Assembly (NCBI RefSeq): GCF_009914755.1
Contig: NC_060925.1
From: the human T2T-CHM13v2.0 reference genome, Homo sapiens
DNA length: 64,000 nt
Direction: 5' to 3' (one strand)
Shown: positions 33,052-40,372 of the stretch, piece after piece
Layout of the letters: every line of letters begins with the position of its first letter
Numbering within the stretch: position 1 is the stretch's first letter
Program-made: the position numbers and the translations under genes
Notes under the pieces: model-generated
Database searches by the model: none
Seen by the model: only the letters and a program-made list of their open reading frames with translations
What the model was told of the DNA's origin: nothing

Positions 33052-34328
33052 TTACTTCACTAAAAGAAATAAGTACACTGTCACCAGAGGAAAAGTTGCT
33101 GATGTTATTGACTATTTGCTTTTAGAAATCTCCCTCCCTAGACATTCAGGGCACTGGCTTTTCTGGTTTTCTGAACCCTGTTCCTTTTGCTTCTTCATTA
33201 CCTTGTTCTTATCCATTAAATGTTTGTGCTCCCTGGAGCACTGTTTTTCGCCCTCTTTTGAGCCACATCACAGCTCTCCCTAGGGAATTTCACTGTCTGT
33301 ATTCGCCTCCACTGCCACTGTCTTCATTAGCTTGCTGATGAATCTCACCATCATTCCCTTAGCTCCACCCAACCCTGACATTCAGGCTCATGTTTCTAGC
33401 TATCCTTTGTATGTTCTCCTTGGAGATATTCTACAGGTACTTTCAGCTCACCTTGTTGACAGAAATACGTAGCAACCATGTACATCCCAAATACCCACGC
33501 TAGAAACTCCCTGTCCCTTGTTCTGACCTCATTTCAACTCAGTCACCCAAGCCAACCTCTGAGTTGCCTTTCACCTGTCTATTCCTCCCATTTCCTCTGC
33601 TACCCTGTAGTTGAAGGCCATGTTATCTCTCACCTGGGCTTCTGAAGTAGTTTCTGAATACGTTTTCTTGCCTTTATTCTCTCCCCATCTCATTCACCCA
33701 TGATATTACTACATCTTTGATTATAAATGCAAATATTCTAACAATCTCACCTGCTTACAATGTCTAATATTTTTTCATCATCCGCAGAATAAACTGCAAA
33801 CTCTTTTACATGACTTCCATAGCTCTCTACAGCCTAGACTTTACATCTTTTTATAGCCTGGCCTCCCCACAAGCATCTAGGCCTAGTCACACCAAATTCT
33901 CCTTATTTCCTGAAAATGTTGTACTTATTATTGCTTCCATACAGTTACACACCCTTTTGCCTGGAATGCCCTTTTCTACAACTGGTGATTGTCCAATGTT
34001 ATTTAAAACTGTGTCTTAGTGACCCTTTCATGATTCCTTTAGGCAAATGGTCTCTAAGTTTTATTAGTTTTATGTATCACATTTTATTGTAATTTTTTTT
34101 ACACATATCTCACCTGAATAGATTGTGGGTTTTTCTAGGTGGGTCTGAGCTTTATTCAAAAGTGTTTATTAAATTAGATGAGAAAAGGAGGAACATTCTT
34201 CATTTTTTCTCCTGCTTTAAGCACTAAACCAAGAGTTCTATAAATGCAATAAGCAAAAAAGTGAAAAATGTACTCAGAAGACTATACTGGATCAGTTAGT
34301 GTAGAATACTGTTATATTAATTTTTCAT

Positions 34329-34838
34329 TGTATTAGGGTTCTCTAGAGGGATGGAACTAATGGAATATATATGTATGTATATATATTCCAACCCAAAGTG
34401 TCTTGGTGGCAATCTTAATATATATATATTGGCAATCTTTATATATATATAAAGGAGAGTTTGTTAAGTATTAATTCACATGATCACGAGGTCCCACAAT
34501 AGGCTGTCTGCAGGCTGAGGAGCAAGGAGAGCCAGTCTTGAGTTCCAAAACCGAAGAACTTGGGGTTCGATATTTGAGGGCAGGAAACATCCAGCACGGG
34601 AAAAAGATGTAGGCTGGGAGGCTAGGCCAGTCTCGCTTTTTCATGTTTTTCTGCCTGCTTTATATTTGCTGACAGATGATCAAATGGTGTCCATCCAGAT
34701 TAAGGGTGGGTCTGCCTTCCCCAGCCCACTGACTCAAATGTTAATCTCCTTTGGCAACACCTTCACAGACACACCCAAGATCAATACTTTGTATCCTTCA
34801 ATTCAATCAAGTTGACACACTCAGTTTTAACCACCACA
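34329..34838 (-). mobile_element. MLT2A-type LTR (HERV-L 3' LTR)
   Basis: The minus strand reads TGTGGTGGTTAAAACTGAGTG...TCAACTTGATTG...AGAGAACCCTAATACA, with an internal (TA)n. It is preceded by a PPT-like AAGGGGTAGATT. Confidence 0.88.
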
Positions 34839-36301
34839 AATCTACCCCTTGTCAACTTGAACCCATACACATCTCCTGAGATCACACATAATCTTCAAAT
34901 AAAGACAATAATTAGGTCATAATTACACCTGATGTAGTACAACTATTCTTCGTACATCCGGAAACACACCAGTCCCCAACTGAAACACTCTTACATAAAG
35001 TTAACGATACTTAAATGCTGATGTGAAGTCAATAAATCTTATGTCACATGATAAAGGAGAAAGGAAATAAAATGAAGATATTTTCTTAGTACAAGTGTGT
35101 GCAAGCACAGACATGTTTTTAATAAAAGAAGGAGGAAATACTGAGGACAATTACAGTCCTCATTTCTGCAGCTGGTCACATGGTAGTAGCTGGTATTGAT
35201 GACTACCTTCTTCTACCCATTTTGTATTCCTTTTGCCTTCAGCAAACACCTCAGCAGGTTGTGTTTTTTTTTTTCCTGATGGAGAGGCCCAAACCTTCAT
35301 TCATCCAGGCGGGACCATTTGTAGTCCCGCCTGGATTGGGCTGTTGTAGTTGCCCATTGACCTTAATCACAGGGCATGGTAATACTAAGAGACGCCCTAA
35401 TGGATCTCCTGTATTCCATGAATACTCTTTCTTACCTCCGTTCTGGAGTAGTAGACTGATTTCATCTTGATAGCCTGGGTCTTGATAGCCTTGATGTCCC
35501 AGCCAACACTGTAACGCCTTTCTTAGCCTGTTTACTTAAAGGTAGGAACCCAAAGTGTCCTGGTGGCAATCTTAACTACCAGTTTAATGGAATTGTTGTT
35601 GTGTCTTCTGGTGGCAGCGTTCCTCCCTCTGGAACTAAGACCTCTAGGCCAGCAGAACTTAATGTTGCGGGAACAGGAAGCAAACATTTTGCTAGTGGAT
35701 CACTAGGGGTGATGGTGAGTGGTACCACTTCCATTTCCACCCCTTGATTCCTGGACCTGTGAATCCTGGCTATGGGAGAAACAGTACCACATATTGGACG
35801 CTGATTCAGAGCATACACAGCCTTCTTGAGAACTTTGCCCCAACCCTGCAAAGTATTCTCACCTAGTTGGCATTGTAATTGTGACTGCAAAAGGCCATTC
35901 CACCGTTCTGCTTCAGGATGTTGGGGAACATGGTAAGACCAGTGAATTCCATGAGCATGAGCCCACTGCTGCACTTCTTTAGCCATAAAGTGAATGCCTT
36001 GGTCAGAGGCAATGCTGTGTGGAATACCATGACAGTGGATAAGGCATTCCATGAGTCCGCGGATGGTAGTCTTGGCAGAACCATTGCATGCAGGATAGGC
36101 AAACCCATATCCAGAGTAAGTGTTTATTCCAGTAAAGACAAACATCTGCCCTTTTCACAATGGAAGAAGTCCAACATAATCAACCTGCCACCAAGTAGCT
36201 GGCTGATCACCCTGAGGAATAGTGCCATATCAAAGGCGCAGTGTTGGTTTCTGCTGCTGGCAAATTGGGCACTCTGCGGTGGCAGTAGCCAGGTCAGCTT
36301 T
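34839..36301 (-). mobile_element. HERV-L internal 3' part: degenerate integrase and dUTPase
   Basis: ORFs give DLATATAECPICQQ (Zn-binding CxxC), TGINTYSG..SDQG..ERWNG (integrase core) and GLEVLVPEGGTLPPEDTTTIPLNW (dUTPase). The frames are shifted and the first catalytic D is replaced by N. Confidence 0.9.
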
Positions 36302-36541
36302 CCACCGGCCCATCTTGTTTTCTGCACTGGGAAGGTGGGGCATGAGCACAAATGTTAGGACCTGAAAGGTGGTGAACTCTGCCTGGGCAGGGCAAAGCCA
36401 GAGGAAACTCTGGTGGAGGTCCGTAGCAGTCCTGATGTGCAAATCGGTCATCCAACCTGGGTGTAGGGGCGAAAGACTAATTGAACCATCTAGTAGCTGG
36501 TTCCCTCCAAAGTTTCCCTCGGGATAGCTGGCACTCTCGCA
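36302..36541 (+). pseudogene. 28S (LSU) rRNA fragment of about 240 nt, CpG-decayed
   Basis: gttaggacctgaaag.tggtgaact.tgcctgggcaggg...ccagaggaaactctggtggagg...gtaggggcgaaagactaattgaaccatctagtagctggttccctcc matches the conserved LSU domain II core. Confidence 0.93.
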
Positions 36542-36544
36542 AAA

Positions 36545-36562
36545 ACCCCACTCTTGGTACCA
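36545..36562 (-). promoter_or_regulatory. Retroviral primer-binding site complementary to the tRNA-Leu(TAA) 3' end
   Basis: Minus strand TGGTACCAAGAGTGGGGT, 6 nt downstream of the THE1 LTR end. One mismatch to the recalled tRNA end ACCCCACTCCTGGTACCA. Confidence 0.75.
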
Positions 36563-36568
36563 ATTTAC

Positions 36569-36918
36569 TGTATTAGTCCATTTTCACGCTGCTGATAAAG
36601 ATATCCCCGAGACCGGGAAGAAAAGAGGTTTAATTGGACTTACAGTTCCATATGGCTGGGGAGGCCTCAGAATTATGGTGGGAGGCAAAAGGCACTTCTT
36701 TCATGGTGGTGGCAAGAGAAAATTAGGAAGAAGCAAAAGCAGAACCCCTGAGAAACCCATCAGATCTCATGAGACTTATTCACTATCATGAGAATAGCAC
36801 AGGAAAGACTGGCCCCCATGATACAGTTACCCCACTGGGTCCCTCCCACAACACATGGGAATTCTGGGAGATACAATTCAAGTTGAGATTTGGGTGGGGA
36901 CACTACCAAACCATATCA
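36569..36918 (-). mobile_element. THE1-family MaLR LTR (5' LTR)
   Basis: Minus strand TGATATGGTTTGG...GCAGCGTGAAAATGGACTAATACA, 350 bp, followed by the THE1-int start GTAAATTGGTACCA. Confidence 0.9.
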
Positions 36919-37230
36919 TTCATCAAAAGGTGTTGGTGGGGTAGAGGGTAGTTAGGATGATCCATGATCTCCATCATGATGATGATGGTATTGATGATGT
37001 AAGTCACTGAAAATATTTGGTGTTATAAGAATAATTTCTTCCTGATTGTCAGTTTTGAGTTGTTTTGCTATTAGGAGGCAAAGTAGGGGGGCATATACCC
37101 ACTTAAAATATTTTAATTCTGGCTAGTGGAAATGACAGTAATGCCTTCTTCATAATTAAAATGTCACTCTGAAATGGTCCCAAATTAAGAAGGATCTCTT
37201 TTTGGTGTGTTCTGCAAGATTCTGATCACC

Positions 37231-37533
37231 TTTTTTTTTTTTTTTTTTTTTTTTGAGATGGAGTATTGCTTTGTCATCCAGGCTGGAGTGCAGGGCGCAA
37301 TCTCGGTTCACTGCAAGCTCCACCTCCCGGGTTCACGCCATTCTTCTGCCTCAGCCTCCTGAGTAGCTGGGACTACAGGCACCTACCGCCATGCCCGGCT
37401 AATTTTTGTATTTTTAGTAGAGATGGGCTTTCACCTTGTTAGCCAGAATGGTCTGGATCGCCTGACCTCATGATCCACCCGCCTTGGCCTCCCAAAGTGC
37501 TGGGATTACAGGTGTGAGCCACCACACCCGGCC
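37231..37533 (-). mobile_element. AluY
   Basis: Full dimer; TSD gattctgatca. Confidence 0.93.
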
Positions 37534-37732
37534 GATTCTGATCATCTTTTATACATATGCTATTTTTGTCTATCACTTTAGGAATCATCACAGATCAAGG
37601 TCATCCTTTTGGTTTTTGTGATAGCGCTATACCTCAGTCAGCTTACTAGCTCATCTCCACTCAGAGATGAAGAAGCATAGGCAGCAAGTTAGTGCCTATA
37701 CATAATGTATATGGAAACCAAATTCAGGGTTG

Positions 37733-37751
37733 ATTCTTTCTTTCTTTCTCC

Positions 37752-37824
<73 letters not shown>

Positions 37825-37850
37825 CCTCTCTCTTTCTGTCTTTCTTTCTT
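37733..37850 (+). repeat. (CTTT)n/(CT)n microsatellite derived from an Alu tail
   Basis: Tandem TTTC and CT units seen directly. Confidence 0.9.
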
Positions 37851-38117
37851 CTCACTCTGTTGCTTAGTACAGTGGCGCAGTCTCGGCTCACTGCAACCTC
37901 CACCTCTTGGGTTCGAGTGATTCTTGTGCCTCAGCCTCCCAGGTAGCTGGGATTACAGGTATGTGCTATGAAGCCCGGCAAATTTTTGTAGTTTTAGAAA
38001 AGATGGCGTTTCACCATGTTGGCCAGGCTGGTCTCAAACTCCTAACCACAAGTGATCTGCCCACCTCAGCCTCCCAAAGTGCTGGGATTACAGGCATCAG
38101 CCACCACTTCCGGCCCA
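37851..38117 (-). mobile_element. Alu (AluS)
   Basis: Alu body adjacent to the CTTT tract. Confidence 0.88.
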
Positions 38118-39694: not shown

Positions 39695-40016
<322 letters not shown>

Positions 40017-40372
40017 GGAAGTTGATATTCAAACAGGAGCAGCATATGCAAAGACAGCTCTGAGAGAGTAGATGGATCCAGACTCCTATTGCTGATAGCG
40101 TCCTGCAGGATTGGGCTTCAATGTGACTAACCTACAATTGCCTCCAGGTGCTCCACCCACTGAGTCCTTGTGTCTCTGCTGAGGTCCTTGGAGAGTTACT
40201 GGAGAGGGCTCTGTGTCAGATGACCTTGAGGAGGCTCTGATTTAGCCTTTAGTAAAATGCAAAGAGTTGAGGTCTTCTCCACGCAAGAGCTCGCTGATGT
40301 CAATGAGGTATTGAGGATGGGGCCATCTCCTATTTCTGTGGCCAGTACTGAGTTTTGTTATCCTTCCTTTAG

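What the first reader, a model, noticed from the sequence alone, without database searches (positions are those of the whole stretch)
36295..36570. 28S rRNA captured antisense exactly at the end of the PBS: signature of an aberrant plus-strand transfer
Seen: the THE1 part stops right after the 18-nt PBS (36545-36562). About 240 nt of 28S rRNA follows, antisense to the element, with no poly-A or TSD of its own, and joins HERV-L integrase at about 36301. Known: plus-strand strong-stop DNA consists of the LTR plus 18 nt copied from the tRNA primer. Inference: THE1 strong-stop DNA jumped onto co-packaged 28S rRNA, which explains the antisense orientation, and then onto an incomplete HERV-L minus-strand DNA. 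The rRNA would have bridged two genomes. Minus-strand switching would give sense orientation, and L1-mediated insertion would leave a TSD and tail.
Basis: partly seen in the sequence, partly recalled or inferred. Interest (0 to 1): 0.82.

Follow-up and report, generated by a model that had tools for sequence, protein, structure and literature searches.

The report
Hybrid provirus with antisense 28S patch
An intron of NOTCH2NLC holds a single ancient retroviral insertion stitched together from a THE1 LTR, a backwards piece of 28S ribosomal RNA and the rear half of a HERV-L provirus, which looks like a fossil of one reverse-transcription accident.

Summary
On the minus strand the window has a complete THE1-type LTR (36918-36569), a 6-nt spacer and an 18-nt tRNA-Leu(TAA) primer-binding site (PBS, 36562-36545). 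Three T follow, then 240 nt antisense to 28S rRNA (36302-36541; 212/240 identical to rDNA, no gaps). HERV-L homology starts exactly at 36301, in the integrase.

New here: the HERV-L part runs colinearly into its own 3' LTR, which ends at 34329. The whole 2,590-bp unit is flanked by a perfect 5-bp target-site duplication (ATGAA), the length seen in 6 of 8 ordinary THE1 elements. So the chimera integrated as one piece.

Other support:
- The PBS is the tRNA-copied 18-nt form, not the 20-nt variant in 19 of 24 THE1 copies.
- The 28S entry point lies next to a rare site complementary to the PBS 3' end.
- Non-CpG divergence is equal in the three parts (4.0%, 5.2%, 5.3%).
- The junction exists only in the five chr1 NOTCH2/NOTCH2NL paralogues.

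Best reading (about 0.7): THE1 plus-strand strong-stop DNA was extended on 28S rRNA, then on an incomplete HERV-L minus-strand DNA.

"Exactly at the PBS end" really means within 0-7 nt. It is a new variant of known template-switch capture, of moderate interest.

The parts
34324..34328 (.). Target-site duplication, left copy (ttcat on +, ATGAA in element sense)
   Evidence: Read directly. It abuts the end of the HERV-L LTR as defined by other copies. Identical to 36919-36923.
34329..34838 (-). 3' LTR of HERV-L type (recalled name MLT2A). Its 3' end is at 34329. The 5' end at 34838 is inferred from the TG start after a purine-rich tract.
   Evidence: HERV-L copies are colinear from 36301 through the internal/LTR boundary to about 34550-34620. 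Three LTR ends (L074, L075, L078) stop in the same terminal TACA motif at the position of 34329; L071 and L076 carry variants of it. The 5' boundary was not tested separately.
34390..34418 (-). 29-nt copy of an internal HERV-L segment (source 35547-35575) inserted in the (TA)n stretch of the 3' LTR, same orientation
   Evidence: 28/29 identical. Absent from 8 of 8 other HERV-L LTR ends; present once in 20 of 25 HERV-L internal loci.
34839..36301 (-). HERV-L internal part: from inside the N-terminal region of integrase to the purine tract before the 3' LTR. The rve core lies at about 35915-36148.
   Evidence: 22 of 25 HERV-L copies align from exactly 36301 and are colinear downstream. Pfam rve E 9.6e-12.
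36302..36541 (+). 28S rRNA fragment, antisense to the element (nt 1458-1697 of the Rfam-defined 28S of locus L090)
   Evidence: 212/240 identical to rDNA with no gaps. The 28 differences are 18 CpG transitions, 7 other transitions and 3 transversions. Rfam E 9e-51. Position in 28S.
36542..36544 (.). Three A (+) / T (element sense) between the 28S piece and the PBS, of ambiguous origin
   Evidence: Read directly. rDNA has a single G here.
36545..36562 (-). 18-nt primer-binding site, TGGTACCAAGAGTGGGGT in element sense
   Evidence: 17/18 to the PBS expected from tRNA-Leu(TAA) genes L080 and L081. The mismatch to the L080 type is a CpG-to-CpA change.
36563..36568 (-). Spacer GTAAAT between LTR and PBS, of the THE1 type
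   Evidence: Spacer read by eye in 23 of the 25 THE1 loci: exactly GTAAAT in 20, a one-base variant in 3. For L016 the script read another LTR copy, and L039 has no PBS. Three HERV-L-type LTR ends (L094, L095, L108) have GATTT instead.
36569..36918 (-). Complete THE1-type 5' LTR (350 nt)
   Evidence: 83-89% identical over its whole length to 25 other copies. Homology starts at 36918 in 16 of 25.
36919..36923 (.). Target-site duplication, right copy (ttcat on +)
   Evidence: Read directly. It abuts the first base of the THE1 LTR.

Best explanation
Window 34329-36918 (minus strand) is one chimeric provirus that was assembled during a single faulty reverse transcription and then inserted by integrase.

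Inferred course of events:
1. A particle held a THE1 RNA, a HERV-L RNA and 28S rRNA.
2. On the THE1 template, plus-strand strong-stop DNA was made as usual: the whole LTR plus 18 nt copied from the tRNA-Leu(TAA) primer.
3. Its free 3' end did not anneal to a THE1 minus-strand PBS. It paired instead with a short complementary site in 28S rRNA (4 terminal nt perfect, 7 of 9 in all) and was extended for about 240 nt. This wrote 28S in antisense.
4. Where the rRNA becomes very GC-rich, the growing strand left it. It continued, without microhomology, on a HERV-L minus-strand DNA that had stopped inside integrase, and ran to the end of the HERV-L 3' LTR.
5. The HERV-L minus strand was then completed by copying the new plus strand.
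6. The product had a THE1 left end and a HERV-L right end. Both LTRs share the same terminal 8 nt. It was integrated with a 5-bp duplication.

Shown: the anatomy, the boundaries, the TSD, the PBS type, the complementarity, the equal ages and the single copy. Inferred: co-packaging, the order of transfers, and RNA rather than DNA as the 28S template.
For: (1) Single integration. ATGAA directly flanks the first base of the THE1 LTR and the last base of the HERV-L LTR. The boundaries were fixed independently from other copies. 6 of 8 ordinary full-length THE1 elements show a perfect 5-bp TSD at the same boundary definitions. The chance that two random 5-mers of this window match is 0.0015.

(2) The two LTRs are each purely of one family. 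THE1 copies match 36918-36569 throughout. The 3' LTR is colinear with HERV-L internal sequence in other copies. A provirus made by normal replication of one RNA would have two like LTRs.

(3) Geometry. In the element's plus sense the order is LTR, 18-nt PBS, then the complement of 28S. This is what extension of strong-stop DNA on rRNA gives.

(4) The PBS has the 18-nt tRNA form, 17/18 to tRNA-Leu(TAA) genes. 19 of 24 THE1 copies with a PBS carry a 20-nt variant with a 2-nt insert, although those copies were chosen for likeness to this one.

(5) The rRNA site 1 nt beyond the captured piece is one of only 11 of 6,734 positions in 18S, 5.8S and 28S with at least 4 anchored and at least 7 of 9 matches to the PBS 3' end. 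That is about 0.0065 allowing 4 offsets, or 0.025 with the looser criterion of an anchored 4-mer, 42 of 6,734.

(6) The exit from 28S lies where GC rises from 53-62% to 75-88%.

(7) Equal age. Non-CpG divergence is 10/194 = 5.2% for 28S. Terminal-branch estimates are 4.0% for the THE1 LTR and 5.3% for the HERV-L part.

(8) The integrase/28S junction occurs only in the five chr1 paralogues: 5 of 40 scored, 56 candidates. The chimera did not spread further.

(9) The PBS end leaves other fossils in this superfamily. Four LTR-PBS junctions continue into the primer tRNA itself, with 26 to 51 nt of antisense tRNA-Leu.
Against: Three T lie between the PBS and the 28S copy where simple priming at the complementary site predicts one C. 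So a substitution plus a 2-nt insertion, non-templated addition, or an oligo(A) end on the rRNA fragment must be assumed.

The 7 nt after the PBS match the THE1 internal start nearly as well (6/7 to L028). The switch may therefore lie a few nt past the strong-stop end.

The criteria of the complementarity test were chosen after seeing the site.

There is no microhomology at the 28S/HERV-L junction. This is unusual for retroviral template switches: the paper read in passages reports microsimilarity at 25 of 29 junctions (PMC5131818).

The tRNA-like PBS form also occurs in 5 of 24 ordinary THE1 copies, so it is only modest support.

No empty site could be examined. The right flank is unique sequence and the left-flank search did not complete.

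Packaging of 28S rRNA in such particles was not found in the papers read, which speak of 5S rRNA, 7SL, U6 and tRNAs. It is recalled only.
Confidence: 0.7

Rival explanations
1. The chimera was made in one reverse transcription, but on the minus strand. HERV-L minus-strand DNA switched at integrase to a template with antisense-28S sequence (an antisense rDNA transcript or a free 28S cDNA). It then switched to THE1 RNA near the PBS through fortuitous similarity. A THE1 strong-stop DNA then completed the 5' LTR by an ordinary plus-strand transfer.
For: It gives the same final structure, including the TSD and the two pure LTRs. The region around the junction is similar between antisense 28S and THE1 (7 of 9 in the PBS 3' half; then a shared TTGC(G)), which could guide such a switch. 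By recalled general knowledge, minus-strand switching is the commoner kind of retroviral recombination.
Against: It needs an antisense 28S template, which by recalled knowledge is far rarer than 28S rRNA itself. It does not explain why the switch falls within 0-7 nt of the PBS end in an element with more than 1.5 kb of other internal sequence. It predicts the inherited THE1 PBS form in about half of outcomes, whereas the tRNA form is seen.
Confidence: 0.12
2. The structure was built after integration. Separate THE1 and HERV-L insertions lay side by side or nested. A later deletion or double-strand-break repair joined them with a 28S cDNA as filler, or L1 machinery inserted a 28S fragment.
For: Three A follow the 28S piece in its sense orientation, which might be a vestigial tail. 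rRNA-derived fragments do occur scattered in the genome (PMC5381670, passages).
Against: The 5-bp TSD spans the whole unit and would then be a coincidence (0.0015). There is no TSD around the 28S piece. Removing the 28S piece would still leave a THE1 PBS joined to mid-integrase. All three parts have the same age.
Confidence: 0.05
3. Separate cDNA fragments (THE1 strong-stop duplex, 28S cDNA, partial HERV-L cDNA) were joined end to end by host repair before integrase inserted the product.
For: The blunt 28S/HERV-L junction has no microhomology, and extra bases lie at the other junction. Both are features that end joining can give.
Against: It needs three fragments joined in the right order and orientation and still held in one integration complex. 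It does not explain the complementarity between the PBS end and the adjoining 28S site.
Confidence: 0.05

Closest known systems
LTR-mediated retroposition: capture of cellular RNA inside LTR retrotransposons by template switching (Tan et al. 2016, PMC5131818; passages read)
   Same: A host RNA copy replaces part of the internal region. Both LTRs are kept, L1 hallmarks are absent, and more than one switch happens in one event. That paper's filters accept a non-autonomous MaLR paired with its autonomous ERV-L partner.
   Different: Here the captured RNA is rRNA, not mRNA. It lies antisense to the element and starts at the PBS end, which points to the plus strand. The two LTRs belong to different families. 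One junction has no microsimilarity. The paper's model is a minus-strand switch; none of my search terms for strong-stop, plus-strand or rRNA occurs in its main text. Its supplements were not seen.
Retroviral non-homologous recombination with 'patch' insertions from a third template, including a recombinant with 7SL sequence (review PMC4997597, passages; the primary papers PMC2168973 and PMC238240 are not held)
   Same: A packaged host non-coding RNA serves as a splint between two unrelated viral sequences, helped by fortuitous microhomology.
   Different: Those cases are laboratory recombinants of exogenous retroviruses. This is a germline fossil with TSD that joins two endogenous families. 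Orientation and strand of the published patches could not be checked.
Complex LTR-retrotransposon insertions created by abnormal template switching (Sabot and Schulman 2007, PMC1950507; abstract and Results read)
   Same: The same logic applies: a flanking TSD of family-typical length shows one integration of a product fused from two co-packaged templates.
   Different: The plant complexes are fusions of two related elements with like outer LTRs and a third inner LTR, without host RNA. Here the outer LTRs are unlike and an rRNA patch lies between.
Read-through of the primer tRNA by plus-strand DNA (recalled from retrovirology; examples seen here in L103, L104, L108, L096)
   Same: An LTR and PBS followed by the complement of a structural RNA, made by extension of strong-stop DNA past nt 18.
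   Different: There the template is the primer still attached to the minus strand. Here it is a separate molecule reached by an intermolecular transfer.
L1-made chimeric retrocopies with small RNAs or rRNA (bioRxiv 10.1101/2025.02.02.635956, search listing only; otherwise recalled)
   Same: Template jumping by a reverse transcriptase joins a cellular RNA copy to a retroelement copy.
   Different: L1 chimeras carry a poly(A) tail and long TSDs and are in sense orientation to L1. This one has LTR ends, a 5-bp TSD and no real tail.

Membership tests
Product of plus-strand strong-stop DNA extension | A complete LTR followed by 18 nt complementary to the 3' end of the primer tRNA | tested here: met
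   LTR 36918-36569 is full length against 25 copies. The PBS is 17/18 to tRNA-Leu(TAA) plus CCA.
Product of plus-strand strong-stop DNA extension | Element homology ends at the 18th nt | tested here: inconclusive
   Homology ends at 36538-36547 in 22 of 25 copies. However, the next 7 nt fit both the THE1 internal start and 28S, so the break is at 0-7 nt.
Product of plus-strand strong-stop DNA extension | Downstream sequence is the complement of the captured RNA | tested here: met
   28S is on the + strand and the element on the - strand.
Product of plus-strand strong-stop DNA extension | PBS of the tRNA-copied form, not the inherited form | tested here: met
   The window has the 18-nt form. 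19 of 24 THE1 copies have a 20-nt variant.
LTR-mediated capture of cellular RNA (template switching) | Host RNA copy replaces internal sequence and is enclosed by LTRs with a family-typical TSD | tested here: met
   No THE1 internal sequence and no 5' HERV-L sequence is present. 5-bp TSD.
LTR-mediated capture of cellular RNA (template switching) | Microsimilarity at the switch points | tested here: inconclusive
   Entry: 4 nt perfect, 7 of 9. Exit: none.
L1-mediated rRNA retropseudogene | Own TSD of about 7-20 bp and a poly(A) tail | tested here: not met
   No shared 5-mer or longer in the 30-nt flanks. Only three extra A.
Ordinary THE1 (MaLR) element | THE1 internal region and a second THE1 LTR | tested here: not met
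   THE1 homology stops at the PBS. The 3' LTR is of HERV-L type.
Ordinary HERV-L provirus | HERV-L 5' LTR, leader, gag-pro and reverse transcriptase upstream of integrase | tested here: not met
   Other copies carry unrelated HERV-L sequence upstream of 36301. The HERV-L-type spacer and leader seen elsewhere are absent here.

The most novel reading that the evidence does not exclude
This locus is a first-generation fossil showing that a THE1 RNA and a HERV-L RNA were reverse transcribed in the same particle and inserted by one integrase. That would be physical evidence for the long-assumed mobilisation of MaLR elements by ERV-L. It would also show that strong-stop DNA which fails to find its acceptor can prime on packaged rRNA, perhaps on an oligoadenylated decay fragment as the three extra A hint. 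This would define a plus-strand route by which LTR elements capture host RNA in antisense.
Probability: 0.5. Interest if true: 0.65.

Novelty: new variant of a known kind. Interest (0 to 1): 0.56.

Why it matters
Capture of host RNA by retroviral template switching is known. The described cases and models are minus-strand events that give sense copies.

Here one locus records, with base-level junctions and a TSD, an event best read as a failed plus-strand transfer rescued through rRNA. It joins a non-autonomous MaLR element to its presumed autonomous helper. That would be direct sequence evidence that the two shared a particle and an integrase, something otherwise argued only from similar LTR ends and PBS.

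It also gives a concrete search image for a genome-wide screen: LTR, 18-nt PBS, then antisense cellular RNA, with unlike LTRs and a 5-bp TSD.

It has no evident bearing on NOTCH2NL function. It lies in an intron, antisense to the gene, and predates the NOTCH2NL duplications, since all five paralogues carry it.

My searches found no paper describing this locus or this route. The library lacks most subscription journals, and the two most relevant primary papers were not held.

Tried and rejected
- **Empty-site proxy:** I hoped the flanks were halves of an older repeat with uninterrupted copies elsewhere. The right flank is unique apart from the five paralogues. The left-flank search did not complete and I did not repeat it, because it could no longer help.
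- **Other copies of the chimera:** none beyond the five paralogues.
- **Other captures at tRNA-like Leu PBS sites:** 269 sites in the genome (57 + 212), of which only 157 were listed. I picked 20 by eye as non-canonical and fetched them. Rfam at E up to 0.01 found only Alu/SRP-like matches, and no rRNA or other RNA next to a PBS. By eye and BLAST, four are read-through into the primer tRNA. This screen is partial: 112 sites were unseen and PBS copies with other mutations were not covered.
- **Pfam on two further pieces** (35251-35535 and 36230-36301): no family. The dUTPase that I recall for HERV-L is therefore not confirmed here.
- **Semi-global scoring of PBS against tRNA** was uninformative, and picked a wrong LTR for L016. 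The PBS classes were counted by eye.
- **28S in virions:** no support in the two papers read.
- **Considered and rejected:**
  - Normal replication of a chimeric RNA, because the LTRs would be alike or hybrid.
  - An assembly artefact, because five paralogues agree.
Full report
**What is there**

The window's + strand carries 240 nt of 28S rRNA at 36302-36541. It matches an rDNA copy of the same genome at 212/240 positions without a gap and matches the Rfam eukaryotic LSU model at E 9e-51. It corresponds to nt 1458-1697 of the 28S as delimited by Rfam in locus L090.

Of the 28 differences, 18 are CpG transitions, 7 other transitions and 3 transversions. Only 5 of 23 CpG sites survive. This is the pattern of an old, methylated, non-functional copy.

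To its right, on the minus strand, lies a complete 350-nt LTR of the type I recall as THE1 (36918-36569). A spacer GTAAAT and the 18-nt sequence TGGTACCAAGAGTGGGGT (36562-36545) follow it. Homology to 25 other copies of this LTR starts at 36918 in 16 of 25. It ends between 36538 and 36547 in 22 of 25. One copy lacks a PBS. Two alignments run on, but at only 56-59% identity.

To the left of the 28S piece, also on the minus strand, homology to the family I recall as HERV-L starts at exactly 36301 in 22 of 25 copies (36302 in one, 36297/36298 in two). The other copies carry unrelated HERV-L sequence upstream of that point. The minus-strand ORF 35576-36154 has a Pfam integrase core domain, E 9.6e-12.

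**The whole unit and its target-site duplication**

The HERV-L part is colinear with other copies from 36301 through the end of the internal region into the LTR. Three other LTR ends (L074, L075, L078) stop in the same terminal TACA motif at the position of 34329; L071 and L076 carry variants of it.

Immediately outside the two ends, the element-sense sequence ATGAA occurs twice: at 36919-36923 before the first base of the THE1 LTR, and at 34324-34328 after the last base of the HERV-L LTR.

As a control I fetched the far ends of eight ordinary full-length THE1 elements. Six show a perfect 5-bp duplication at the same boundary definitions. Two random 5-mers of this window match with probability 0.0015.

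So 34329-36918 entered the genome in one integrase-mediated step, already chimeric. Its 5' LTR is THE1 throughout and its 3' LTR is HERV-L throughout. It is therefore not the product of normal replication of one RNA, which makes two like LTRs. Sabot and Schulman used the same logic for plant elements (PMC1950507, Results read).

**The primer-binding site**

A pattern search found three tRNA genes with the matching 3' end, and ARAGORN calls all three tRNA-Leu(TAA). With CCA added, two of them predict a PBS that differs from the window's at one position. For the L080 type that difference is a CpG-to-CpA change.

Among 24 other THE1 copies with a PBS, 19 carry a 20-nt variant with a 2-nt insert and only 5 have the 18-nt form. 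This holds although the copies were selected for likeness to the window's sequence (classes counted by eye).

A PBS copied from the tRNA and never paired with a genome-derived copy is what strong-stop DNA carries. The support is modest, because a fifth of ordinary copies look the same.

**The two junctions**

*Entry.* In rRNA sense, the captured piece ends at ...CGCA. rDNA continues with G, then ACCCGACGC. That stretch is complementary to the last 9 nt of the PBS at 7 positions, with the 4 terminal ones perfect.

Only 11 of 6,734 positions in 18S, 5.8S and 28S meet that standard. That is about 0.0065 allowing four offsets, or 0.025 if only an anchored 4-mer is required, 42 of 6,734. The criteria were set after seeing the site.

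Simple priming there predicts one C after the PBS, but three T are found (36544-36542). Three explanations are open:
- a transition plus a 2-nt expansion;
- non-templated addition;
- a short oligo(A) end on the rRNA fragment.

The 7 nt after the PBS also fit the start of the THE1 internal region (6/7 to copy L028). The break is therefore fixed only to within 0-7 nt of the PBS end.

*Exit.* The 28S copy ends at ...GGCCGGTGG (element sense) and HERV-L starts with AAAGCTGACC. Neither parent continues into the other, so there is no microhomology. The exit lies where the rRNA's GC content climbs from 53-62% to 75-88%. This would fit stalling of the polymerase, but that is an inference.

No direct repeat of 5 nt or more flanks the 28S piece.

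**Age and copy number**

| Part | Non-CpG divergence | Source |
|---|---|---|
| 28S piece | 10/194 = 5.2% | |
| THE1 LTR (terminal branch, 25 copies) | 4.0% | |
| HERV-L internal part (terminal branch, 20 copies) | 5.3% | |

The branch estimates come from pairwise distances only, without any consensus. The three parts are of one age within error. The THE1 figure is biased slightly low, because those copies were picked for likeness.

The integrase/28S junction is found only in five places on contig 1, at 96-100% identity (5 of 40 scored, 56 candidates). These are the window itself and four paralogues of the NOTCH2/NOTCH2NL duplication; the attribution is inferred from the annotation given. The element predates those duplications and never spread as a family.

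**Mechanism**

In the element's plus sense, the LTR and PBS come first and the complement of 28S follows. DNA grows 5' to 3', so a strand ending in the PBS was extended on a template with 28S sense sequence. A strand consisting of the whole LTR plus 18 tRNA-derived nt is plus-strand strong-stop DNA (established retrovirology, recalled).

The simplest course is therefore:
1. THE1 strong-stop DNA failed to reach its normal acceptor and primed on 28S rRNA.
2. It was extended for 240 nt.
3. It then moved to the 3' end of a HERV-L minus-strand DNA that had stopped in integrase, and ran to that strand's end.
4. The minus strand was completed on the new plus strand.
5. The product was integrated.

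Both LTRs end in the same 8 nt, which would suit one integrase.

This requires the two retroelement RNAs and the rRNA in one particle. That is inferred. The papers I read document 5S rRNA, 7SL, U6 and tRNAs in virions, not 28S.

**Rivals**

- *Minus-strand double switch through an antisense-28S template.* It gives the same product. It needs a rare template and leaves the coincidence with the PBS end unexplained (0.12).
- *Post-integration assembly or an L1-made 28S insertion.* The TSD, the missing inner TSD and the equal ages speak against it (0.05).
- *End joining of separate cDNAs before integration.* It cannot be excluded from sequence alone (0.05).

**How general?**

A pattern scan found 269 sites with the tRNA-like 18-nt PBS; 157 were listed. 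Most are followed by the usual MaLR internal start, and a few by what appears to be the HERV-L leader.

I picked 20 by eye as non-canonical and fetched them. None has rRNA or another Rfam family beside the PBS. Other findings among them:
- Four LTR-PBS junctions continue into the primer tRNA-Leu itself: 45, 51, 28 and about 26 nt of antisense tRNA.
- One has a tandem repeat of the LTR end and PBS.
- One seems to jump from the PBS straight to a downstream internal region (by eye).

The PBS end is thus a recurrent site of plus-strand accidents in this superfamily. The rRNA capture is so far unique. The screen is partial.

**Comparison with what is known**

- Capture of cellular RNA inside LTR elements by template switching is described across animals. 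That work accepts MaLR/ERV-L pairs and has one human HERV-K example. It concerns mRNAs and a minus-strand model (PMC5131818, passages).
- A review describes host-RNA 'patches' that splint non-homologous retroviral recombination, and a recombinant with 7SL sequence (PMC4997597, passages).
- The primary papers were not held, so I could not check the orientation of those inserts.
- My seven literature searches found nothing on strong-stop DNA extended on rRNA, nor on this locus.

I file it as a new variant of a known kind.

**Limits**

- Family names are recalled.
- No repeat library, no other primate genomes and no curated family models were available.
- The supplements of PMC5131818 were not seen and might list similar human loci.

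Noticed in passing
window 34390-34418 (source 35547-35575): The 3' LTR carries a 29-nt copy (28/29 identical, same orientation) of an internal HERV-L segment, set in the (TA)n stretch. A further 10-nt partial copy lies beside it. It is absent from 8 of 8 other HERV-L LTR ends and present once in 20 of 25 internal loci. It may be another template switch of the same faulty reverse transcription, or a later event.
   Followed up: partly
L103 (G000:C2:121592931), L104 (C11:33570319), L108 (C5:63506591), L096 (C12:93613988): LTR end, spacer and PBS are followed by more of the primer tRNA-Leu(TAA) in antisense: 45, 51, 28 and about 26 nt of tRNA including the PBS. This is read-through of the primer by plus-strand DNA, then unrelated sequence.
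   Followed up: partly
L107 (G000:C3:37570408): A THE1-type LTR end with PBS is followed by a second copy of the last ~35 nt of the LTR, the spacer and a PBS, and only then by the internal region. This is a tandem duplication of the strong-stop end.
   Followed up: no
L093 (G000:C3:105709757): The PBS is followed directly by sequence that by eye looks like a downstream part of the MaLR internal region, as if a deletion began at the PBS end. Not tested.
   Followed up: no
L101 (G000:C23:38909388): An antisense tRNA-Leu 3' part including CCA lies next to a long T run. This is probably an L1-made tRNA retropseudogene rather than an LTR junction.
   Followed up: no
G000:C2:230603195 and C2:230604321: A tRNA-like PBS followed by the leader shared with other presumed HERV-L copies lies only about 1.1 kb upstream of a HERV-L integrase match. 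This suggests a provirus with a large internal deletion.
   Followed up: no
window 36479-36545 versus THE1 internal start: Antisense 28S and the THE1 internal region share ACTTTGGA at a similar distance from the PBS, within 56-59% overall identity. This is probably chance, but it makes 28S here a weak mimic of the normal acceptor.
   Followed up: partly
window 37223-37538, 37728-38109, 39705-40018: Alu elements give sub-threshold Rfam matches to SRP RNA, mir-1268, mir-3135 and mir-1285. Ordinary.
   Followed up: no
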